From positions 40,550,001 through 40,614,000 of the forward strand of contig NC_086097.1 of the NCBI RefSeq assembly GCF_963921235.1: a stretch of 64,000 nucleotides of DNA. Reading direction: 5' to 3'. Origin of the DNA: Mobula hypostoma. Lineage: Eukaryota. The notes below the pieces were generated by a model. It saw only the letters and a program-made list of their open reading frames with translations. It was not told the origin of the DNA and ran no database searches. Made by a program: the position numbers and the translations under genes. Positions 808 through 59,345 of this stretch are shown piece by piece. The number at the start of each line of letters is the position of its first letter. Position 1 is the first letter of the stretch.

Positions 808-939
808 ATGGTTCAATGGTTCAATTTAATATCAGCAAATGAATACTTATTCTTCAAGGACATCCACAAAACAGAAATAAAACCAAGAAAACATAAGAAC
901 CCCAAACCCCATCCCTCCTGTGCACAAGCAGCAGAAAAT

Positions 940-2790
940 GCATCAACACTCCCCCTCCTCCCCCCACTGGCTCCAGCAAAAGCATCAACACTCCCCCTCC
1001 CCACTGGCTCCAGCCAAAGCATCAACACTCCTCCTCCCCCCCACACTGGCTCCAGCAAAAGCATCAACACTCCTCCTCTACCCACTGGCTCCAGCAAAAG
1101 CATCAACACTCCTCCTCCTCCCACTGGCTCCAGCAAAAGCATCAACACTCCTCCTCCTCCCACTGGCTCCAGCAAAAGCATCAACACTCCTCCTCCTCCC
1201 CCCCCCCCCACTGGCTCCAGCAAAAGCATCAACACCCCTCCTCCCCCCCCCACTGGCTCCAGCAAAAGCATCAACACTCCTCCTCCCCCCCCACTGGCTC
1301 CAGCAAAAGCATCAACACTCCCCCTCCTCCCCCCACTGGCTCCAGCAAAAGCATCAACACTCCTCCTCCCCCCACTTGCTCCAGCAAAAGCATCAACACT
1401 CCTCCCCCCCTCCCCATTGGCTCCAGCAAAAGCATCAACACCCCCCCCCCAACTGGCTCCAGCAAAAGAATCAACACTCCCCCTCCTCCCCCCACTGGCT
1501 CCAGCAAAAGCATCAACACTCCTCCTTCTCCCCTCCCCACTTGCTCCAGCAAAAGCATCAACACTCCTCCCCCCCCCCCACTGGCTCCAGGAAAAGCATC
1601 AACACCCCTCCTCCACCCACCACTGGCTCCAGCAAAAGCATCAACACTCCTCCTCCTCCCACTGGCTCCAGCAAAAGCATCAACACTCCTCCTCCCCCCC
1701 ACTGGCTCCAGCAAAAGCATCAACACTCCCCCTCCCCCCACTGGCTCCAGCAAAAGCATCAACACTCCTCCTCCTCCCACTGGCTCCAGCAAAAGCATCA
1801 ACACTCCTCCTCCTCCCACTGGCTCCAGCAAAAGCATCAACACTCCCCCTCCCCCCCACTGGCTCCAGCAAAAGCATCAACACTCCCCCTCCTCCCCCCA
1901 CTGGCTCCAGCAAAAGCATCAACACCCCTCCTCCCCCCCCACTGGCTCCAGCAAAAGCATCAACACTCCCCCTCCCCCCACTGGCTCCAGCAAAAGCATC
2001 AACACTCCTCCTCCTCCCACTGGCTCCAGCAAAAGCATCAACACTCCTCCTTCTCCCCTCCCCACTTGCTCCAGCAAAAGCATCAACACCCCTCCTCCCC
2101 CCCCCACTTGCTCCAGCAAAAGCATCAACACTCCTCCCCCCCCCCCACTGGCTCCAGCAAAAGCATCAACACTCCCCCTCCTCCCCCCACTGGCTCCAGC
2201 AAAAGCATCAACACTCCTCCTCCCCCCACTTGCTCCAGCAAAAGCATCAACACTCCTCCTCTCCCCCCCCACTGGCTCCAGCAAAAGCATCAACACTCCC
2301 CCCCCCAACTGGCTCCAGCAAAAGCATCAACACTCCCCCTCCTCCCCCCACTTGCTCCAGCAAAAGCATCAACACTCCTCCTTCTCCCCTCCCCACTTGC
2401 TCCAGCAAAAGCATCAACACTCCTCCTTCTCCCCTCCCCACTTGCTCCAGCAAAAGCATCAACACTCCTCCCCCCCCTACTGGCTCCAGCAAAAGCATCA
2501 ACACCCCTCCTCCCCCGCCCCACTGGCTCCAGCAAAAGCATCAACACTCCCCCTCCACCCCTCACTGGCTCCAGCAAAAGCATCAACATCCCCCTCCCCC
2601 CCCACTGGCTCCAGCAAAAGCATCAACACTCCTCCTCCCCCCACTTGCTCCAGCAAAAGCATCAACACTCCTCCCCCCCCCCCACTGGCTCCAGCAAAAG
2701 CATCAACACTCCTCCCCCCCCCACTGGCTCCAGCAAAAGCATCAACACTCCCCCTCCTCCTCCCCCCCACTGGCTCCAGCAAAAGCATCG
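940..2790. repeat. Minisatellite/VNTR, ~45 units of ~37-45 bp
   Basis: Near-invariant core CACTGGCTCCAGCAAAAGCATCAACAC (variant CACTTGCT...) separated by variable C/CCT-rich linkers. Confidence 0.97.
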
Positions 2791-3879: not shown

Positions 3880-5690
3880 AAACCATCCAGGCTCCTGAAC
3901 ATTTGAAGGGAATACCACTCTGATAAAACAAATAATAAACTGGCTTATTTCCAGTCACTTCATGAAAACTTCCACAAATATAAAACACTTTAAAACATGT
4001 TTGCCAACATTTCACAACAAAAACAGTGATAATTTGTGTGCTTCATACAATATTTCATTGTTTATTGTTAAATCTGGAAAGTCCCATTCAATTGGAGAAG
4101 CACTAATTCCAGACCAAATAATTAAAGCGATTCCTCGCAGTGACAACTCTGCTCAAAGGTGAATAATTGAAATGTCTGATAATATGGAAGACACATTATA
4201 CAACATTCTTCAGACAAAAGAATTTGCTCTGCAGTTGGATAAGTTAACAAACCATTATAAAAGAGGAATGCATGGTTTGAGAGTTGTTACTTGCAAATAG
4301 AGTAGAAACAGATCCAAAGGGAGGGTCAATATCTTGGGTTTCTGAGCAATTTTTCAAAGAGAAGGACATTCCGTTCACCAACTTTCTTGCTTGTGCCACC
4401 ATCAATGACAGGACACCACTGTGCATTATTATTTTCTTGAAAAAAAGGTGTACCTAACATATTTATCTTTCACAGAGAACATCTTGTCACAAAAGAAACT
4501 AAGCGATCAGATGCACAAATCATGAAATATTGCTATTACAGCAGTAAATAAAATCAAAACTCATGCTCTCAATTCTGACTATTTTGAGAGGTTTGTATTG
4601 AGGATGATGAACCATCTGACTGCTCGCTGTTGCACACAGAAGTCAGATGGCTCTCCAAAGAAAACTGCCCGAAGCACTTTATGCACTTTTTAAACTGTAA
4701 TAAAATTCTTTGAAGACTTGAATACTTCATTTGGTAATCAACTCAAGAATATTTGGCATGACTTTGCTTATTTTTTCTGAATTATTCACATAGTTTAATG
4801 CAATCAGTCTTCAATTGCAAGGAAATTATATGAATCTTATCAAAGTCAAGTCAATTGTCTTCACATTTGTCTCCACATTTGTCCAAGTTAATCCAATTTA
4901 AGTGCAACATTGGCCGTCACGACCTTTTCAAATTTCTGAGCTTCTCTGAGTTTTAAGAGAAAGAAGGAATACCTGACAATGATCTTCAACTATTCTGTGC
5001 CTACCTGGGTGAGCTGCATAAAGATATGTCAGAGAGATAACAGGATCTTCTCTCAATCCAAATTCCAGATTGGGTAATAAATCCATTCCTGAACAATTGT
5101 AATGAGGGATTAACAGGAAGGATGAAGGAAGAACAAATCTCACTACAAAATGACCTTGATCTGAAGCCGAGGTTAAAAGAAAAATCATATCAAGAAAGAG
5201 ATCTCTGAATGCTATCCTGCACTCTGGAAAAAGGTCAAGATATTCTTTATTGCCTTTCTAACATCATATTTAGTGGCTCACAGTTTCAGTGCAGTCACCC
5301 AACTTCTTCCAAAGCAATGAAACTGACTGCAAATTACTGAATGAATGATTTGAGACATTCAGCCTGATGTTGAGAAGTTGATGTCACTGCACCAAGCCTG
5401 TCCATCTCATTGAAAGGTGAAAAAACAATGAAGTACTGAATAGTTGGACCACTAATGTATGCTCTAAAACTGCTGTTGAAAATTGTTTCTATTGTAATTA
5501 GATAAATATTTTTTAATATAGTTTTAAATAGATTTGAATAATGTTTGCAATTATTTGTCACTGATTTAAATTTGCAGTTCCTGTTTTCTTTAACTTTGTA
5601 ATAGCTGGAAAAGTGTTGGGGTGGGGGGGGGCGCTAGGAAAGCAGTTGGGAGCTAAGGGATGGTAACCCAAAAAAGTTTGGGAACCACTA
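3880..5690 (+). mobile_element. hAT (Buster/Charlie-type) DNA transposon relic: transposase body and right TIR
   Basis: Degenerate peptides KPSRLL.., ASYNISLFIVKSGKSHSIGEALI, KAIPRSDNSAQR, EFALQLD, HTEVRWLSK, FIAFLTSYLVAHSFSAV and terminal PSH* (~5413). TIR-like GTTTGGGAACCACTA at 5676-5690. Many stops and frameshifts. Confidence 0.88.
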
Positions 5691-7330
5691 TCCTACAGTA
5701 TATGTAACCATTCGAATCTCGTGCATTAAAATGTAATAACGTTGTTCTACTTACTCATTTAGTACTTTTCTGCAGAGTGTACTTTTTATTAGGCTCAAAC
5801 TCTTTGTGATTCCATGGTCAATCATTCTTTTATTTTTATCTTGAACTATTTAGCCAAGTGAAACTCTCATAGTTTTATTTTTTGCACAATTTCAAAAGTG
5901 CAGGTAATAGCTGTGGATGAAGAACTTCAATTTGTCACATTTTTTTTGAACTGAGGAGAATATAAATCTCAATGTTTAAAATTGCTTCTTAAAATTAACA
6001 GCTGATATTTATTGCTACAGAACTCTCTGTAAAAGGGAAATCTAAAGTATTTTGTGTAAAGGCAGGTGTGTCTACGCTGAACTGCTATTAGAAATCAGCA
6101 GATCGGCGTCTGCACCTCCTTCCCCACTCCAGAACAAAGCGAAGCCGTGGGTGGGAGATGGCAGTCTACCCCTTGATGGCCAAAGATCCTGGATGAATGC
6201 ATCGACGACAAATTTGTGTTTACCACTCAGTGTCAATCTTATATATGTTATGCCTTGAACAGTCCTAATGTTTACAACAGCACACTTGGAATTTGAAAAA
6301 TGGAAGGTCGATTAATAAAAAAAATCGCATTCACTTTATTAAAACCACGTACAAGGTCATTTGATGTTTAATTTTCTGCAATTTAAGAATTCAGTTTTAA
6401 TTGCAGAATTATGTCTAGCGACGTGATTGTGCAGATTCCAAATCCGTGATTGTTACTTAGCCTGTTGGCCAGTAGAGTGCAGTCAGCACATTAATACTGC
6501 AAAAGTCTCAATACAGTAAAGAGCTGGCCATATCCACAGAATTACAACGGTTCATCTCTCCATGATAACTGCCATTGACATTAACTGTCATAAAGATTTG
6601 GGGAGATGTAAGAATTTACTTTAGTGGGAAATATTCCGTACATGGAATCAAATTGTCTTATTGGTGATTATTGCTGATCCTCTGTTTGTTTGTTTGTAAC
6701 GAAGTTCTTGTTTCTTGTATGAGTTGGATGCCGTACTGCCACCACGGTCAGTCCTGCCCGTCTCTCAGTGGATCTACATCTCACCTTCGATTGGATGGCT
6801 CAAGTGATTGACCTACAAAGCATAGAATTCGTCCACCACTTACAAAGATGGCCTGATCATAGTTGTGAGAATCGCTGTATAGATAACTGGTGATCATTAT
6901 CTACTTCCCGCAGAGTTTCAATTGTTTGAAGCCTACTGGATTCCAATTACTGGAGATGACGGTGACATGAGCAGGAAACTTGAGGAGCAGACTATATCAC
7001 TCTCTGCCGAGCTGCGATTGATCTGAATTGATCTTAATACTAAAACACTTTGGCAGAGGAAAACGGAACCTTTTTGTAAATCGCGGATCGGACTTTTAAA
7101 ATTCTCCCAGAATGAGACAGAATGGCGAAGTAAGCGTTTATTCTTCGCGCTTAGATTCACATTCGAATGTCAATCTCTTAATATTTCATATCTTTGCGCG
7201 TTGAACGTGCAACAAAAAACGTTGACATTATAAACCATTGAAACACTAGCTCCGTGGGTCACTAGAGTGCAAGTTACCCGGCAGCCAATCACCCAACTCA
7301 CCGGTACTATGATAGAGCGAAATTAAAATC

Positions 7331-9006
7331 CTATACGGAAAAGGATCTTGGCGATTGCAGGGATGATTTACAGCGGATTAAAAAGCTTGAACATAGAGAC
7401 ATTTTAAAAAAAGGATGTGCTGATGCTTTTGGAAAGCATTAAGTTGAATAAATCTCCGGGACCGGACGAGATGCACCCCAGGCTACCGTGGGAGGCGAGG
7501 GAGGAGATGACTGAGCCTCTGGCAATGATCTTTGCATCATCACTGGGGACGGGAGAGGTTCCGGAGGACTGGAGGGTTGCAGATGTTGCTCCCTTATTCA
7601 AGAAAGGGATTAGAGTTGGCTCAGGAAATTATAGACCAGTGAGTCTAACTTCAGTGGTTGGTAAATTGATGGAAAAGATCCTGAGAGGCGGGATTTATGA
7701 ACATTTGGAGAGGCATAATATGATTAGGAATAGTCAGCATGGCTTTATTAAACGCAAGACGTGCCTTAGGAGCCTGATTGAATTTTTTGAGGATATGACT
7801 AAACACGTTGATGAAGGTAGAGCAGTAGATGCAGTGTATATGGATTTCAGCAAGGCATTTGATAAGGTACCCCATGCAAGGCTTATTGAGAAAATAAGGA
7901 GACATGCAATCCAAGGGAACCTTGCTTTGTGGATCCAGTACTGGCTTGCCCACAGAAAGCAAAGAGTGGTTGTAGATGGGTCATATTCTGCATGGAGATC
8001 GGTGACCAGTGCTGTGCCTCAGGGATCTGTTCTGGGACCCTTACTCTTTGTGATTTTTATAAATGACCTGGATGAGGAAGTGGAGAGATAGGTTACTAAA
8101 TTTGCTGATGACTCAAAGGTTGGGGATGTTGTGGATAGTGTGGAGAGCTGTCAGAGGTTACAACGTGACATTGATAGGATGCAAAACTGGGCTGAGAAGT
8201 GGCAGATGGACTTCAAACCAGATAAGTGTGGGGTGGTTCATTTTGGTAGGTCAAATATGATGGCAGAATATAGCATTAATGGAAAGACTCTTGGCAGTGT
8301 GGAGGATCAGAGGGATCTTGGGGTCCGAGTCCATAGAACACTCAAAGCTGCTGCGCAGGTTGACTCTGTGGTTAAGGCGGCATACGGTGACCCTCATCAA
8401 TCGTGGAATTGAGTTTAAGAGCCTAGCGGTAATGTTACAGCTATAAAGGACCCTGGTCAAACCCCACTTGGAGTACTGTGCTCAGTTCTGGTCACCTCAC
8501 TACAGGAAGGATGTGGGAACTATAGAAAGAGTGCAGAGGAAATTTATAAGGATGTTGCCTGGATTGGGGAGCATGTCTTATGAGAATAGGTTGAGTGAAC
8601 TCGGACTTTTCTCCTTGGAGCGACGGAGGATGAAAGGTGTCCTGATAGAGATGTATAAGATGATGAGAGGCATTGATTGTGTGGATAGTCAGAGGCTTTT
8701 TCCCAGGGTTTTTCTCCCTCTAGCACGAGAGGGCATAGTTTTAAGGTGCTTGAAAGTAGGTACAGAGGGGATGTCAGGGGTAAGTTTTTTTACGCAGCGA
8801 GTGCTGAGTTCGTGGAATGGGCTGCTAGCGACGGTGGTGGAGGCGGATACGATAGGGTCTTTTAAGAGACTCCTGGATAGGTACATGGAGCTTAGAAAAA
8901 TAGAGGGCTATGGGTAACCCTAGGTAAATTCTAAAGAAAGTATATGTTTGGCACAGCATTGTGGGCCGAAAGGTCTGTATTGTGCTGTAGAGTTTCTAAG
9001 TTTCTA
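7331..9006 (+). mobile_element. CR1 LINE ORF2 (reverse transcriptase) fragment with 3' end
   Basis: [71 protein letters not shown]-type tail near 9000. Interrupted by stops and frameshifts. Confidence 0.95.
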
Positions 9007-11434
9007 TACACTACGCCATACCCTGCCTGCATGCAGTCACTCAGATAAATATATAACCCGGATTATTTGTATTTTGAAGAAAAAACTTTGCAGAGAACAA
9101 ACAAAAACAGAACTTGTGATGTTACATTACTACTGAAGTGATTCTAAAAAAGCAATTAATGGCGGGGGGGCGTTGACGACGATAGGTGGGAATTTTCTAT
9201 ATTTTTGCGTTCTTCAGAAAAGAACAGTAGTTCTGGCATACGAAGATTTACTAATTGCAGATAGAGTTGTGTTTGCAGGTAAATGGTTGAACGTACAGTT
9301 CTTCACATTCAAGTAGGATCAATCAGCCGGGCTCCCGTGAACAGTTCATGCTACAGAAGCAACCAACAGCTGTGGCAAAGATCGTGCTCGCCGTAACCGT
9401 GTAGCGGGCGGAGAGCTCCATCAACCTAGCCTGTTCCGGCAGCGCCTTGGTCAGAAGCTTTCATCAATGCGATTTCAAGGGAGGACAGCGTATCTATTCC
9501 CGCCGCCGGCCGAGCTGAGAGTGGTGTCAGTCTCGCAGTGGAGTGGAGCCTGAAATCGCGCTGATACCGACGAACTGGTTTAAAAAATGTGATTTAAGTG
9601 AAGGAGGCTCTGTATCAAAGAGCAAGCCCAAATGTCTCGCTGGACTACGAACTGCATGGCAATTAAGCCTATTAAGGAAGTAATATTATTTTGTCAAATA
9701 ATAATATCACCAAAATGTCCTGACAGGTTTTGCAAATTATTCCCTATTGTTAATTGATTAAGGGACCGAGGTTTGAATTTTCACAGAAATCAGTTGATGT
9801 TGCCAACGGAGGGCACATGACTCTTCTCATGACAGGAACTTGAGTCCATTTGGAAGACTTCTCACAAATTTATGCATAGGAACCTTGTTGTGACACCCTT
9901 GTCACTTTAAGTAAATAATTAAGCTTGGGGTGGTGGGGAGGGGACGTCAATGGAAGCGTTGAAAACCCAGAAAGTTTCTCTTTTCTGAGAGTAGAAATGC
10001 CTGCCTTCTCCACCTTACTCCGCCGTCGGGAGTATTTGTGCAGTAAGTGATTCATGGTGCGGCTATTAATGAAATAACTGATAACATCGTTCACGTTCCT
10101 GTTTGCAACTATTGATGCAATTGACTGCGCTATTGGAGCTTATAACGCGCCAACTCAAAATAATTAACATTTCGCGTCACTGCTGTTCCAGAGTCACGCC
10201 AACGAAGTGTGAATATTGTTCGTTTGTTCGACATTCCCTACCATAGAAGCCTACTATAGGTAGGCTTAATTGATGTTCAATATTCTCAAAGTCATGATTT
10301 ATTTAAATTGCCAATAAACTGTTGACGGATACATTCAATGTCCCGTGCATTTCGACTCCGGAAAACGTACAGAACTGAAGGTGATAAACCCTTTGAAGAT
10401 TTCCTTATATCTTCTGTTCTTTCTATGGGATCTATATCTCCATGGCTGTTGTGTATATTGAATGTCACCTTTGGAACTGCAACTGTTGGGCGTCAAATGC
10501 AGGTGAAGCTTAATCGGAAGCCAATAAAGTTGACGATAGTTCGGGTGAGTGGGGTATGTGGAAGGTTATATGAATCTCCCCACTCCCCACCACTGCTCAA
10601 ACACAAAACAACACATTTTTCTTGGAGCACGACCATCTTCGGCGCATTCTCGCATCCCTAAGAATCTCCTTTCACGGAACCGCTTGATTTTGACTTGACC
10701 TGCCTACAATTTACATTTGTTGGCAAGGAAGAAGACGAAGCCCCCCCTCCCCCCCACGGGCGCTGCAAATCTGCGAAATGGCGCGATCTACAACACGCGT
10801 CAGCACCTGTTCGTTACGCAATGCCTATTAATAAAATACTCATCAAGTGATACCCCATGTCCTGAGAACCAAGGCAAGTTAAGCCCATAGTTATACGGGC
10901 TAGCTGACTGTTAATGGTCGGAACACCAACCAGGCTTAACGAGAGTGGGCAGTTAAAATTTAACTGAGTTGCAAGATTCCTCCCATTCACCGGGAAAGCC
11001 ATACGGACGAACTTTCTATCATCTGCACCAATACATACCCTATTGGCCTTTATCTCAACAGAGTGTAGTCCATTTCCTTACGTGAGATGTGATACAGGCC
11101 AGGAGCTTTAGAATTCCCTCTGCCAACGTTTGGCCTTTCCAATTTTATCCTCGCTTCTCCACTGCGCTCCTCAAAACCGTAACCTTAGACCAACCCAACA
11201 CAATAACTTTTTTTTTTGCTTCCTTACATCTCATAGAGTCTCTAAAACACGTTATTAAAGTAAACGTGACACAGCATTACAAGTCACTACAGTATGACCC
11301 TGACGATAAAGCGACCTGTATCATCCTTTCGGAATTTCCCGCTCTCCTGTCGAATTTGGACCATTTAGCAGGAAAACAATTTCTTGGAGGCACCGAGGCT
11401 ATATTACTCACCATTTATACTAATACTCCTTAAC

Positions 11435-11655
11435 TCTCCCCATTTTCCCATCGACTCCCCCCAGATACTAACATTCAGTTACACACATGGGGCAATTTAC
11501 AGTGGCCAATTAATCTACCAACAGGCACGTCTTTGAGATGAAACCTAACCATCCGAAAGAGACCCGTGCGATTACAGGGAGAACGCGCAAATCCCACGGA
11601 TATTTAATCAAATTCTGGATTGAACTTGGTTCACTGGAACTGTGCGTCGCCGTCT
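11435..11655 (-). mobile_element. HE1-like tRNA-derived V-SINE, degenerate
   Basis: The rc contains a B-box-like GTTCAATCC and a V-domain-like TTTGCGCGTTCTCCCTGTAATCGCACGGGT; AATTAATCTACCAAC resembles the copy at 46425-46920. Confidence 0.7.
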
Positions 11656-11871
11656 GGTGGCGGGGGGGGGGGCATTGCACAGGATGGAAAAAGCTGCAGA
11701 AAGTTGCAAAACTTAGCCAGCTGCATCAGTCACTGGCCTTCCTAGCGTCCAGGACATCTACAAAAGGCGATATGCGTCATTAAGAGCTCCCATCACCCAG
11801 GTCATCCCCTGTTCTCATTGCTACAATCAAGGAGGAGGTATAGGATCCTGAAGACACACACTCAGTTTTAG

Positions 11872-12039
11872 CTACAGTCGACGTTTCGGGCCGAGACCCT
11901 TCGTAGTCCTGACGAAGGGTCTCGGCCTGAAACGTCGACTGTACCTCTTCCTAGAGATGCTGCCTGGCCTGCTGCGTTCACCAGCAACTTTGATGTGTGT
12001 TACTTGAAATTCCAGCATCTGCAGATTTCCTCGTGTTTG
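11872..12039 (+). mobile_element. Penelope pseudo-LTR-derived insert with inverted 5' arm
   Basis: 32-bp inverted repeat (11873-11904 / 11912-11943, 1 mismatch). Flanked by CACTCAGTTT(T/C)AG at 11859-11871 and 12040-12052. Homologous to the terminus next to the GIY-YIG relic at 30232-30310. Confidence 0.85.
11905..11940 (+). ncRNA. Minimal type I hammerhead ribozyme motif
   Basis: AGTC (stem I) CTGACGA A GGGT-CTCG-GCCT (stem II) GAAA C GTC^ GACT (stem I'). Palindromic ACGT in place of stem III; predicted cleavage after C11936. Confidence 0.8.
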
Positions 12040-13289
12040 CACTCAGTTTCAGAGACAGCTTCTTCCGCTCCACCATCAGATTTCTGAATGGACAATGAAC
12101 CCATGAATATTCTGAATCCTGATTTTTTTTTTGCTCTTTTAGGCTCTCTTTTGCACTACTTCTTTAATTTAACTTTTTCCACATATATTTCTTATTGTAA
12201 TTTATTTTAAAAATTATTATTGTGTATTACAATGCAGTGGCTGCTGCAAAACAACAGATTTCACGACAATATGCTAGATCCTTAAATTGTAGTCCACTGT
12301 TCAGTAATGTGTTGTAATCAATTCATAAAGTGGAAAGGCGCTAATGCAACCAGCAGTTTCCGTGAAACCAGTCACGAGACCAGATTATTGAATCACCAAG
12401 TCTGATTTACACTGACTTGGATGGTAGGTTAGTTCCAGCCGCAAAGGGGAATAATTGTTTCTTTTCTGTTAGATGGTTCTCGCCAAAGCCTTGGAGTTTA
12501 GTCTGTTGCAACTACCAAAAATGCAGGGGCCTTTTCCGTTCTCCAGGTATCCTCCTTTCCGAGTAACTTCATGCATCTCTCCGCCTAAGGTACTGTGTAC
12601 TGCTGTTACTGAAGGCTTCCCGTGTGTGCGCAGCAGAAGGGTAAAACGATCGTCGTTACGGCTAGTATCCAAAGACACGCGTTCCACTCTCACCACCGCA
12701 ATTCCAGTCAGCTGGTCTTAATAATGATTATGAAATTTGTAGATTGTATGGAATCTCTTTTCGTTCAACAATGTCCGCGAGAGTGTGAAATCTACCTTTT
12801 TGTTCCTGTTTGACCAAGATTTGACTTCAGACCCTAACATTGCAGTTACTCTGAAACGGCTTTGCGAGCGAATCTGCTAGGGAACAGTGACTGATAGACA
12901 GTAAACGCCGGCACTCGCAATGATGCCTATCACGTGGAAGATGAATTTGAAGGCGCCAGCTAACCAGGGATCGTCTTTCTGTAATACAGACAGAGAACTT
13001 AAGGATCACAGTCGCCCAGCCTGCGTCCTCGGACAAGGGGGATGTTTCATTGGCCGAGTAGGTTTCAAACTTTGCAGATGGCCTTTCCGAATTAAAAAAA
13101 AATGTTGATAAGCAGGCCTGGTCTAATCCGCCAGCTTTGGATGGCTAGATGGTACCTTACCCTGTAATAAATGTTTGTGTACAACTTCGCAAGGCATTAA
13201 ATACAGATACATTTTTCATATAGTTCAAAAAGGCATTTGAGAACTTAAACAAACAAAGGCGACAATTGCAATCAGTGGGATGATGTGGT

Positions 13290-17399: not shown

Positions 17400-18730
17400 C
17401 CTAATATCATCTAATTTCCCTGTTTGCCCTCCTCAGAAAGCCCAGGGCGGGGAATAGAGTGTTTCAGCACTGCGAGCCGCGGCCCCGATCTCTGTGCCCG
17501 TGTGTGCGCGCGCGCTCGCTTGCGCCTTTTTATTCACACAGTAACCGTGCTCAAATGTAGAAATGCGAAAGGCGATGCAGCTGAAATGCGCGTTGAGTGG
17601 GATGGAGCACTCCTTTAATCTGCTTTCTTCGCCTCGCTGCTGACGAGCTTCAATCACGCAGCCCGTACGTCTCCGTCTGCGGGCGAGCTGCATGTTCACT
17701 ATCCGAGCACGTACTGAGCAACGTGATGATCGGGCTCCGCTAGCAGCCACTACAGCTGCTGACAATTCCGCCCGGACTCTGTCTGCCTCTGCCCCTCCAT
17801 CCAAACCCTACATCCACCCAGCCAGGCAGCCGTCTCGCCGAGCCGAGGTAGTGCGGGATCGGATCGGGTGCGGATGGGGATGCTGCTACTGTCGCTGTCT
17901 TCTCCGGCGCCCTTCTCGTTCTCTCTCCCTGCCGAGCTGACATGTTTCTACTCCGCCAGCCTTCGATACAGCAGTGAACCAGCCTCTCTCCACGTCCTGA
18001 ACTTCTCGTCTCAGTGATTTTTTTTCTCTTCCCCCTCTCCCGGGTCTGGGGAGTGGATGGGTATTGAGTTCCGAGCAGATTCAGCTGTGTGTCTCTGTAT
18101 GTGTGTATGTGTCCGTTTGTGCGTGCGTAGAGGAAACGGAGAGATTTCTCATTGAAAAAAAATGTTGCAGCTCGAATAATTCGTCGCTGTTGAAAAGGAA
18201 GCCGAGTTTTGCCGGGAGCTGGTGCCTTCCTCTTATCCGTTTTATCATTGGGTATGTTAGCGACTGCCGGAATGGGCCGGGAACTAAATGGATTCAGCTG
18301 AACTGCGATCGAACGTGTTTTCTTAATTGTTCTCCAGGGACCAAAGCGAGTTACTTTTAAACAACCGCCGTGGCTAGCAAAGCTCTCGCCTCTTACAGTG
18401 TAATAACAGCCTCCATCTCCATGGGTTGGCTGCAGGCTCCGACCCGGACAGTAACGGGCGCAGTCCCGCTTCTCTAACCCCGAAACACAGACACCTGTCT
18501 CTGACTTGATTTCTTCCAAAAAAAACACCATTATATTTCCTCGTAGTCGACCGCCCTCTGCCCAGTTGGGGACTGAGGGGATCATTGCCGCTGGTCCCCG
18601 GTTGCCGGGATTGCTGAACAGTGCGCCGAAGGCTGGATATGTTAACGTGAAGATGGATTGTGCTTATCTGCTCTCGTGGCTGCTTACAGTTGTACTAGAA
18701 GGCATTTCTGCCCAGGGGGTGTACGGTAAG
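17400..18730 (+). promoter_or_regulatory. MDGA2: CpG-rich promoter / 5' UTR region of MDGA2
   Basis: Visibly CpG-dense, repeat-free sequence directly upstream of the signal-peptide exon; GC box GGGCGGGG at 17445-17452. TSS cannot be determined from sequence. Confidence 0.7.
18653..18725 (+). CDS. MDGA2: First coding exon (signal peptide) of MAM domain-containing GPI anchor protein 2
   Basis: AAGATGG strong Kozak context. MDCAYLLSWLLTVVLEGISAQGVY matches my recollection of the vertebrate MDGA2 N-terminus (MDLLYGLVWLLTVLLEGISGQGVYA). Ends in phase 1 at canonical donor G|GTAAGT (intron starts 18726). Confidence 0.9.
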
Positions 18731-35816: not shown

Positions 35817-36202
35817 CAACGCAAACACGAGGAATTCTGCAGATGCTGGAAATTCAAGCAACACAGATGAAAGTTGCTGGTGAACGCAGCAGCCAAGCAG
35901 CATCTCTAGGAAGAGGTACAGTCGACGTTTCAGGCCGAGACTCTTCGTCAGGACTAACTGAAGAAAGAGCTAGTAAGAGATTTAAGAGGGGGAGGGGGAG
36001 ATCCGAAATGACAGGAGAAGACAGGAGTGGGAGGGATGGAGCCAAGAGCTTGGACAGGTGATTGGCAAAAGGGTGATAGCGAGTCTGAGTCAAAATGTGG
36101 TCGAAAAGTTGAAGAGCCGAAGAAATTACAGATGGGGAGCAGTGAGAGATGGTTTCACTGAACTCCCGTCGAAGAAAAGATTTAAACTTCTTCAGTGTAA
36201 AC
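35817..36202 (-). mobile_element. Penelope-derived insert (pseudo-LTR with hammerhead motif, probably joined to the ORF start)
   Basis: 35820-35955 is close to the rc of 11905-12040; hammerhead motif at rc 35920-35955. 36075-36202 (TLKKFKSFLRREFSETISHCSPSVISSALQLFDHILTQTRYH) is tentatively the element's N-terminus. Confidence 0.8.
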
Positions 36203-36784: not shown

Positions 36785-36863
<79 letters not shown>

Positions 36864-36912
36864 CTTTCTCTCTCTTTCTCTCTCTTTCTCTTTCTCTCTC
36901 TTTCTCTCTCTT

Positions 36913-36993
<81 letters not shown>

Positions 36994-37506
36994 CTTTCTC
37001 TCTCTTTCTCTCTCTTTCTCTCTCTTTCTCTCTCTTTCTCTCTCTTTCTCTCTCTTTCTCTCTCTTTCTCTCTCTTTCTCTCTCTTTCTCTCTCTTTCTT
37101 TCTCTCTCTCTCTTTTCTCCCCCCCCCCAAGGAATTTAAAGTCAGTTGATTTAGACTGTTTATTTTCGGCATTGTGAATCCTGTGGACAGAACCAGCAGT
37201 AAAATTGCGTCTGAAGAAATCCTTCTCCAGAGAAGTCTCTCCCAATTGAACGTGTAAATCTGTTGGACTTTCGAAGTTATCGCTTTAAGAACTATATTTG
37301 ACTTTATTGCTTTAAGAACTGTTTTCGCATTTAACGCTTTAAGAACCAGAGCTGAGTGTCAAGTTGGTGAACGGCTGCATATCTGTTAACTTCCGGTTAA
37401 AGTTTTCGTTTGTTTTTTCCTTATCATTTATCCGTGTTTAATAAATGTTTGGTTGTTTTTATATAACCTGTCTCGATTGATATTCATTGTTGCTGTTTAC
37501 GTAACA
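36287..37506 (+). mobile_element. Solo LTR (Gypsy/ERV-type)
   Basis: Termini TGTTAC...GTAACA; 4-bp TSD TAAG (36283-36286, 37507-37510); TATATAA at 36406-36412; AATAAA at 37440-37445. Removing it restores CR1 ORF2 SIVRKVDELRAW. Confidence 0.88.
36791..37112. repeat. Compound (CT)n / (CTCTCTCTTT)n microsatellite inside the solo LTR
   Basis: About 320 nt of pure pyrimidine on the + strand. Confidence 0.97.
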
Positions 37507-46424: not shown

Positions 46425-46920
46425 ATATAGTCATCGACTGGTACAGCAAAGAAACAGGCCCACTGACCAACCATCAACCACTTACTTTTGCAAAAACTTT
46501 TTTTTCTCTCCTGACTTCCCATCACATATCCTGATTCTACCACTCACCCATATTCTCGGGATAATTCCATACACAATTAACCTACCAATTCAAAAACACA
46601 AAATAATCTGTAGATGTTGGGGTCAAAGCAACACTCACAACATGCTGGAGGAACTCAGCAGGTCGGGCAGCATCCTTGGAAAAGATCAGTCGACATTTCA
46701 GGTCGGTCCTGATGAAGGGTTCCGACCCGAATCGTCGACTGATCTTTTCCACGGATGCTGCCCGACCTGCTGAGTTCATACTACCAATTCACATCTTTGG
46801 GATGTGGGAGGAAACCAAAGCACGTGGAAGAAATGGGGAGAATGTCGGACACCATCTCCCCATATGGCACCGGAGGTCAGCATTCATCCTGGGATGCTGA
46901 AAATGTGAGGCATTAGCTGA
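46425..46920 (-). mobile_element. HE1-like V-SINE interrupted by a Penelope-derived palindrome
   Basis: CR1-like tail (TACAGCAAAGAAACAGGCCC) and CATCTTTGGGATGTGGGAGGAAACC V-domain-like sequence. Confidence 0.75.
46593..46780. mobile_element. Palindromic Penelope-terminus insert with hammerhead motif
   Basis: TSD CTACCAATTCA (46582-46592, 46781-46791); ~56-bp inverted arms 46651-46706 / 46722-46777; hammerhead motif 46705-46740 with GAAA changed to GAAT. Confidence 0.88.
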
Positions 46921-59137: not shown

Positions 59138-59345
59138 CAAAATGCTGGAAGAACTCTGCAAGTTAGGCAGCTCCTATGAAGGGGAATAAACAGTCAATGT
59201 CTTGGGCCGAGACCCTCCGTATGTACTTTCAGGCCTCTGCCTGAAGCAATAACTGTTCATTCCCATCCATAGATGCTGCATGACTTGCTGAATTCCTCCA
59301 GCATTTTGTGTGTATTGCTCAAGATCTCCAACATCTGCAGAATCA
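59138..59345. mobile_element. Palindromic Penelope-terminus element
   Basis: Imperfect ~80-bp inverted arms, CAAAATGCTGGAAGAACTC...GGGCCGAGACCCT and GCCTGAAGC...GAATTCCTCCAGCATTTTG; hammerhead core lost. Confidence 0.8.

What the first reader, a model, noticed from the sequence alone, without database searches (positions are those of the whole stretch)
11905..11940. Apparently intact minimal hammerhead ribozyme in a Penelope-derived insertion
Seen: AGUC-CUGACGA-A-GGGU(CUCG)GCCU-GAAAC-GUC^GACU, with all core nucleotides, a 4-bp stem I, a 4-bp stem II with a tetraloop and a palindromic ACGU instead of stem III. Other copies vary in ways that keep stem II paired (GGGU-UCCG-ACCC at 46717-46728; GGGU-CUCG-GCCC in the inverted arm) and share an extra A after CUGANGA. 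Known: Penelope-like elements carry minimal type I hammerheads that are thought to cleave as dimers. Inference: this is a potentially active self-cleaving RNA about 6.7 kb upstream of the MDGA2 start codon.
Basis: partly seen in the sequence, partly recalled or inferred. Interest (0 to 1): 0.75.

Follow-up and report, generated by a model that had tools for sequence, protein, structure and literature searches.

The report
Masked hammerhead in Penelope transposon stub
This is a real copy of the tiny self-cutting RNA motif already known from Penelope-type jumping genes, one of an estimated tens of thousands in this genome, and this copy is likely silent because an inverted copy right in front of it is predicted to pair it into a long hairpin.

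Summary
The motif is exactly as described (0 of 100 shuffles give one). It is the minimal type I hammerhead of a Penelope-like element (PLE). It lies in a 172-bp insertion (11869-12040) with a 9-10 bp target-site duplication, 92-97% identical to the terminal repeats of RT + GIY-YIG elements with a Neptune-type linker. A 1.01-Mb sample gives about 38,000 exact and 72,000 descriptor-intact copies per genome, so lying 6.7 kb from an MDGA-type gene is unremarkable (about 13% by chance). The family structure is supported by one compensatory pair in stem I. This copy is likely silent: a 35-nt antisense arm forms a 34-bp hairpin that costs about 44 kcal/mol to open, it has no intact same-strand partner nearby, it lies upstream of the gene, and published PLE hammerheads need a dimer or protein. 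No cleavage or transcription was shown here. A family-level point remains: 33 of 89 young copies begin at the ribozyme's front edge and 1 at its cut site. The scan noted this family and pattern before, in this and other genomes.

The parts
11860..11868 (+). left target-site duplication (9 bp; 10 bp if the C at 11859/12040 is counted)
11870..11904 (-). inverted 35-nt arm: copy of pLTR positions +8 to +42; keeps stem II, GAAAC-GUC and the 3' strand of stem I, lacks CUG and the 5' strand of stem I
   Evidence: 2 differences from the direct arm in 35 nt
11905..11940 (+). minimal type I hammerhead motif: stem I 11905-08/11937-40, core 11909-15, extra A 11916, stem II 11917-20/11925-28, GAAAC-GUC 11929-36, predicted cut 11936|11937
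   Evidence: sequence; PMC4209133 (motif definition)
11870..11946 (.). predicted 34-bp fold-back hairpin (32 contiguous pairs 11873-11904 with 11912-11943, 7-nt loop 11905-11911) on either strand
   Evidence: -65.1 kcal/mol, z -12.9, 0 of 200 shuffles
11941..12004 (+). rest of the pLTR up to the first common 3' end (+100)
12005..12040 (+). optional ~36-nt PLE 'tail' up to the second common 3' end (+136)
   Evidence: 3' ends at +100/101 in 42 of 89 and +134 to +136 in 26 of 89 copies
12041..12049 (+). right target-site duplication
11680..12260 (+). older dispersed repeat that the insertion interrupts (both flanks run on without the insert in other copies); LINE 3' end by recall, not tested
   Evidence: 16 empty-site-like rows, 15 distinct places
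35821..35959 (-). second young copy in the window: core intact, stem II broken by an A-C mismatch
18653..18725 (+). context only: first coding exon (signal-peptide-like 24 codons, then GTAAGT) of an MDGA-type gene
   Evidence: MAM exons about 1 Mb downstream

Best explanation
The motif is the minimal hammerhead carried in the terminal repeat (pLTR) of a very abundant Penelope-like retrotransposon, left here in a young 172-bp stub that is likely silent. Shown: the stub has a target-site duplication, ends at the family's +136 tail end, begins at the first base of stem I, and has a 35-nt inverted arm. Inferred: the element's protein nicked the target, started reverse transcription at the tail on an uncut RNA, stopped at the front edge of the ribozyme, and the inverted arm arose during the same insertion (fold-back of the cDNA over a 7-nt loop, or priming from the second target end). 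In the parent element the motif likely cuts weakly, as a pair of tandem copies 3.5 kb apart joined through the palindromic ACGU, or when the element's protein binds. At this locus any + strand RNA coming from upstream is predicted to lock the motif in a 34-bp hairpin, and the - strand holds no complete core.
For: TSD. Direct arm 91.5-97% identical to pLTRs beside long RT-EN frames; all 12 loci picked for long frames have the motif downstream on the same strand and 4 of 12 also about 3.5 kb upstream (L145 sequence). RVT_1 E 4e-5 and GIY-YIG E 6e-4 on the L145 frame, both under Pfam cut-off; GIY-YIG above cut-off on L029. C-x4-CxxC linker in 7 of 8 copies examined. Best named relative: bamboo shark protein, 72%. 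Youth explains intactness: 2-5 differences in 134 nt to the 29 best relatives. Folding: holding stems I and II costs 44.4 kcal/mol in the whole insertion and 14.7 with only 10 nt of arm, against 4.0-4.4 without the arm and 6.0-8.7 in native pLTR context. 1 of 13 family hits in 74 kb has both core halves on the + strand, this one. Papers: a single minimal motif did not cleave, dimers weakly (PMC4209133); the anole PLE motif cut only with protein, unprocessed RNA was the main insertion substrate (PMC11167929).
Against: No cleavage, transcription or RNA-end data for this copy or family were obtained. Folding energies are equilibrium nearest-neighbour values without tertiary contacts, protein or co-transcriptional kinetics; the same model does not favour the double hammerhead either (-9.5 against 2 x -6.0; co-fold minimum -28.3 is another duplex). 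An RNA that began inside the 7-nt loop at about 11905 would escape the arm. The stub lies in a CpG-rich block (9-13 kb, observed/expected 0.74-0.89; 3.7% of 1010 random 1-kb tiles reach 0.7) that may be a regulatory region. Clade assignment rests on the linker motif, with no RT tree. The inverted arm is unusually short: most inverted partners end at +85 to +136, this one at +42.
Confidence: 0.88

Rival explanations
1. This copy is an active self-cleaving RNA. A transcript that starts at about 11905, or one whose hairpin is opened by a helicase or the element's protein, pairs in trans with one of many other family RNAs through ACGU and cuts at 11936|11937, without a host role.
For: All core residues and both stems are present; as a 36-mer stems I and II form with probability 0.65 and 0.86; family sequence is abundant in contigs of runs guessed to be RNA; the locus lies in a CpG-rich block.
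Against: 10 nt of arm already drop stem I to 4e-8; the promoter part of the pLTR upstream of stem I is absent from the stub; a 4-bp palindrome is a weak trans contact; published monomers were inactive (PMC4209133).
Confidence: 0.08
2. The copy has been co-opted to regulate the MDGA-type gene, by cutting an upstream or alternative-leader transcript or by acting as a DNA cruciform or double-stranded RNA element in an upstream CpG-rich block.
For: Sense orientation, 6.7 kb from the ATG; lies in a CpG-rich block apart from the promoter block.
Against: About 21 intact copies per Mb give a 13% chance of one within 6.75 kb upstream of any gene; the insertion is young and interrupts another repeat; divergent transcription from the promoter would read the - strand, which has no complete core; 2 papers hold both 'MDGA2' and 'ribozyme' and their listings show no link.
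Confidence: 0.03
3. The hairpin is a copy of a separate non-autonomous element (MITE- or retrozyme-like) that moves as a unit.
For: Hairpins centred on the motif are common: 13 of 159 sampled insertions have arms meeting within about 11 nt.
Against: Junctions and arm lengths differ from copy to copy; the direct arm is plain pLTR plus tail; no tandem array of monomers as in non-LTR retrozymes.
Confidence: 0.03

Closest known systems
Minimal type I hammerheads (min-HHR) in pLTRs of metazoan Penelope-like elements (Cervera and De la Pena 2014, PMC4209133)
   Same: [quoted passage not shown]
   Different: Helix II is 4 bp (7-8 bp in the Schistosoma families); 10.1-11.1 is G-U in this copy and about half of the family, not the highly conserved G-C; copy number estimate (about 7x10^4 intact) is above the 4,000-9,000 given for coelacanth and Xenopus, though search methods differ; no cartilaginous fish in the parts read or the supplement file searched (one file could not be searched).
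Endonuclease-positive PLEs, Neptune type (Craig et al. 2021, PMC8557442; Arkhipova et al. 2013, PMC3846280)
   Same: Single RT + C-terminal GIY-YIG frame, CX2-5CxxC linker, partial tandems, inverted 5'-truncated copy at the 5' end, one-sided 30-40 bp tail, 8-10 bp TSD.
   Different: Linker is shared with Nematis, and no tree was built; the inverted arm of this copy is only 35 nt and does not reach the usual 3' ends.
Poseidon element of the green anole, PAc (Frangieh et al. 2024, PMC11167929)
   Same: Two 3' ends about a tail apart, which in PAc are internal RT start sites; inserts keep an uncut hammerhead; no pile-up of ends at the cut site.
   Different: In PAc the ORF starts at stem II; here the first in-frame Met after the tail lies about 170 nt past stem I (L145). 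Protein-assisted cleavage is shown for PAc only.
Non-LTR retrozymes of animals (bioRxiv 10.64898/2026.07.22.740005)
   Same: Type I hammerhead, PLE pLTR ancestry, non-coding.
   Different: Retrozymes are tandem arrays with a ribozyme in each unit; this is a single stub with a head-to-head arm.

Membership tests
PLE minimal type I hammerhead | Core CUGANGA ... GAAA ... UH | tested here: met
PLE minimal type I hammerhead | Helix I closing the motif and helix II hairpin | tested here: met
   4 bp each; 86.0% of cells paired across 59 distinct copies, 0 of 500 shuffles as high, slid controls 14-46%
PLE minimal type I hammerhead | Extra nucleotide between 9 and 10.1 | tested here: met
   A in 291 of 301 aligned copies
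PLE minimal type I hammerhead | Palindromic 15.2-16.2, no loop 3 | tested here: met
   ACGU; CG in 137 of 301 copies, CA 80 and TG 53 as expected from CpG decay
PLE minimal type I hammerhead | Conserved G10.1-C11.1 pair | tested here: inconclusive
   G-U in this copy; G-C 127 and G-U 121 of 301 copies; the inverted arm of this same insertion has G-C
PLE minimal type I hammerhead | Compensatory changes between families | tested here: inconclusive
   One clear pair: 2.1-1.1 is C-G 175, U-A 39, C-A 54, U-G 10 of 301, probably a single lineage event; stem II shows one-sided changes only; pairs with two-sided change 3, not above shuffles (385 of 500)
PLE minimal type I hammerhead | Self-cleavage as dimer or with protein | not testable with these tools
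   bench assay; only contig data available
EN+ Penelope-like element | Motif lies in pLTRs flanking one RT + GIY-YIG frame | tested here: met
EN+ Penelope-like element | 5' truncation, inverted 5' copy, 30-40 bp tail, TSD | tested here: met
Neptune clade | CX2-5CxxC linker between RT and EN | tested here: met
   7 of 8 copies; shared with Nematis (PMC8557442)
Neptune clade | RT phylogeny with named Neptune elements | not tested
   no named reference sequences fetched
Non-LTR retrozyme | Tandem units each with a complete hammerhead | tested here: not met
   no tandem array at the site; the second arm is inverted and lacks the 5' core
Domesticated genic hammerhead (conserved intronic or UTR type) | Inside a host transcript and conserved in place across species | tested here: inconclusive
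   upstream of the gene's CpG-rich start and young; orthologous sites of other species could not be fetched

The most novel reading that the evidence does not exclude
The stub is a fossil of the element's copying step. Young copies begin about 20 times more densely in the 41 nt around the front edge of the hammerhead (33 of 89; 0.80 per nt) than in the 279 nt upstream (11 of 89; 0.04 per nt), and only 1 of 89 begins at the cut site. The template would then be an uncut RNA whose 5' end lies just before stem I, at an initiator-like TCAGTT six bases upstream (motif identity recalled). Reverse transcription started at the first tail site would run off that end and give 100-136 bp ribozyme-tipped stubs, many with a head-to-head arm. 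The hammerhead would then mark, and perhaps gate, the RNA 5' end instead of producing the template.
Probability: 0.45. Interest if true: 0.5.

Novelty: new member of a known kind. Interest (0 to 1): 0.2.

Why it matters
For this copy, little: it is one of tens of thousands of identical motifs and is likely locked by its own antisense arm. The family has some use as material. It is young, has copies with open frames of 800-1038 codons, and its insertion ends record where copying starts and stops, which bears on the open question of what PLE hammerheads do (PMC8557442 calls their function unclear; PMC11167929 found cleavage dispensable in vitro). The pair 'motif with arm / motif without arm' is also a simple natural test of cis masking.

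Tried and rejected
Rfam scan: no hammerhead family at E<=1; the MIR814 and Plastid-psbJ-4 rows reflect plain hairpins and are below cut-off. Bare core pattern: not above chance. Sequencing runs: no RNA holder on record was listed; the five runs laid are contigs of other organisms guessed to be RNA and cannot show ends, strand or level, so they say nothing on cleavage or on transcription of this locus; one X6 contig covers 18434-18715. Energy model for a double hammerhead: not favoured over two monomers or another duplex, so no support for dimer formation from folding. Pfam found nothing on 2 of 3 ORF fragments, and RT and EN hits on the long frames are under cut-off. The 24-residue first exon had no PDB match at E<=10. 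Pile-up of 5' ends at the cut site, which would indicate cut RNA as template: not found (1 of 89; nearest +37 among 47 pieces). The Fisher test printed on counts against lengths is not a valid test and is not used; densities are given instead. My split of copies into young, mid and old was crude (only 11 'old'). A fourth random sample could not be obtained, so copy numbers rest on 101 tiles from large contigs. Lunse, Weinberg and Breaker (PMC5785218) could not be read and is known to me only by its title and a review passage. Searches for a printed description of a shark or ray PLE hammerhead found none; the library lacks most subscription papers and Repbase was not searched.

Full report
Observation. 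A descriptor asking for the core, stem I of 3 or more pairs, stem II and a palindromic stem III gave 2 hits in the window, this one and one at 35951 on the - strand, and none in 100 of 100 dinucleotide shuffles. The bare core pattern is not above chance (10 against 7.35). Rfam gave no hammerhead match.

The insertion. A 9-bp duplication (11860-11868, 12041-12049; 10 bp with one ambiguous C) frames 172 bp. The flanks join up in 15 distinct other places among the fetched loci (16 rows, one place fetched twice), so the insert split an older repeat. It has two parts: a direct arm that starts at the first base of stem I and ends at 12040, and a 35-nt inverted arm (11870-11904) complementary to 11912-11946 with one G-U and one mismatch.

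The family. The direct arm has close relatives on many contigs: the 29 best differ at 2-5 of 134 nt. Upstream they run into reverse transcriptase and GIY-YIG coding sequence. An RT fragment gave 90,558 first-look candidates; 150 were scored, at 86-100% identity, several in open frames of 800-1038 codons. I fetched 12 of the long-frame loci: all 12 have the motif downstream on the same strand, and 4 also have it about 3.5 kb upstream. L145 is a textbook partial tandem: pLTR, 1038-codon frame, pLTR. Pfam gives RVT_1 (E 4e-5) and GIY-YIG (E 6e-4), both under cut-off; GIY-YIG passes cut-off on L029. A C-x4-CxxC linker lies before the endonuclease in 7 of 8 copies, the mark of Neptune and Nematis (PMC8557442, passages). 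The best named relative is a Chiloscyllium punctatum protein at 72%, which fits a cartilaginous fish. The window's direct arm is 91.5-97% identical to these pLTRs. 3' ends fall at +100 and +136, the one-sided tail of PLEs.

Copy number. In 101 evenly placed 10-kb tiles (1.01 Mb, large contigs only) I found 177 profile hits at E<0.001, 126 covering the ribozyme, 21 passing the descriptor and 11 identical to the 36-mer. For 3.48 Gb this is about 434,000, 72,000 (95% interval 45,000-110,000) and 38,000 (19,000-68,000). The chance of an intact copy within 6.75 kb upstream of a given gene is about 13%.

Is the fold under selection? In 301 distinct aligned copies pair 2.1-1.1 is C-G 175, U-A 39, C-A 54 (CpG decay) and U-G 10. 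This is a real compensatory change but probably one event between subfamilies. On 62 copies (the window's and 61 drawn from those 301; 59 distinct), 86.0% of cells pair (0 of 500 shuffles as high), two-sided cells and the covariation score exceed all but 2 of 500 shuffles, and slid controls pair at 14-46%; but the number of pairs with a two-sided change (3) is not above shuffles, and stem II varies on one side only. Relatedness inflates these measures. So the fold was likely kept in the parent lineages; nothing shows selection on this copy, whose intactness follows from its youth.

Can this copy cut? In PMC4209133 (parts 1-2 of 4 read) a single minimal motif did not cleave and dimers did so weakly. 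In PMC11167929 (parts 1-2 of 4 and passages) the anole motif cut only with protein, core mutants did not affect insertion, and no RNA-seq reads ended at the cut site. Here the arm adds a block: the insertion folds into a 34-bp hairpin (-65.1 kcal/mol, z -12.9); holding stems I and II costs 44.4 kcal/mol, against 4.0-4.4 without the arm and 6.0-8.7 in native pLTR context; 10 nt of arm cost 14.7. Of 13 family hits in the window plus 10 kb upstream, only this one has both core halves on the + strand, so there is no cis partner. The energy model gave no support for a double hammerhead, but it lacks tertiary terms. Sequencing data were uninformative.

The gene. An ATG at 18653 opens 24 signal-peptide-like codons before GTAAGT. 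MAM-domain exons lie on the same strand about 0.96 and 1.0 Mb on; one matches MDGA1 in the PDB at E 1e-17. The name MDGA2 is from recall. The gene's CpG-rich block spans about 16-21 kb; the stub lies upstream of it, in a second CpG-rich block at 9-13 kb. That block may be regulatory and is the main reason to leave a few per cent for a role. Divergent transcripts from the promoter would read the - strand, which has no complete core.

How the stub arose. Among 89 young copies chosen by tail sequence downstream of +41 (90 fetched, the window's own left out), 33 begin between -20 and +20 of stem I, 5 between +21 and +45, 11 between -299 and -21, 28 further up to -1199, and 12 run past the reference; 1 begins at the cut site. 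23 of the 33 have an inverted neighbour by my count of the rows. The random tiles show the same cluster. The template was therefore likely uncut RNA, and copying often ended at the ribozyme's front edge, either at the RNA's 5' end or at a structural barrier. Head-to-head pLTRs with palindromic junctions are known and were read as self-priming (PMC3846280, passages). The short arm here fits a fold-back over the 7-nt loop; priming from both target ends, proposed in earlier notes of this scan, is not excluded. Earlier notes report the same family and the same pile-up; I measured it myself, and the notes are not independent support.

Literature. Also seen: bioRxiv 10.64898/2026.07.22.740005 (part 1 of 5 and passages; one chondrichthyan genome sampled; supplements not seen), PMC6155905 and PMC6765202 (passages). 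Searches for a shark or ray PLE hammerhead found no description.

Verdict. A real motif, a new member of a known kind, in an ordinary and likely silent transposon stub. Interest 0.2.

Noticed in passing
window 9001-13000: CpG-rich block (observed/expected 0.74-0.89 at 41-51% GC) apart from the promoter block at 16-21 kb; 3.7% of 1010 random 1-kb tiles reach 0.7. Possibly an upstream regulatory region of the MDGA-type gene.
   Followed up: partly
window 932-2789: Minisatellite of 39-42 bp, about 45 copies, C-rich, with a higher-order 248-bp period.
   Followed up: no
window 46651-46777 and 59138-59308: Two more head-to-head hairpin insertions of sister subfamilies with junctions inside the ribozyme; neither has an intact core.
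   Followed up: partly
L302 (G000:C116, around locus position 1490): The one copy of 89 whose 5' end falls exactly at the predicted cut site (+33), next to a short inverted tail piece; could record a cut template or be chance.
   Followed up: no
L109:5730-5958 and L114:6348-6573: Hairpin insertions in which both arms keep nearly whole ribozymes on opposite strands.
   Followed up: no
L162 near 7524: A partial ribozyme copy directly in front of a complete one in the same orientation, a possible cis dimer.
   Followed up: no
G000:C9:8101776-8184438: MAM-domain exons repeated at about 10.7-kb spacing with identical scores: a recent tandem gene array or an assembly artefact.
   Followed up: no
L145, L146, L148, L152: Tandem PLE copies with two motifs 3.5 kb apart around long open frames, showing recent activity of the family.
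   Followed up: partly
window 36788-37346: CT-rich microsatellite of about 330 bp followed by a 27-bp repeat in three copies.
   Followed up: no
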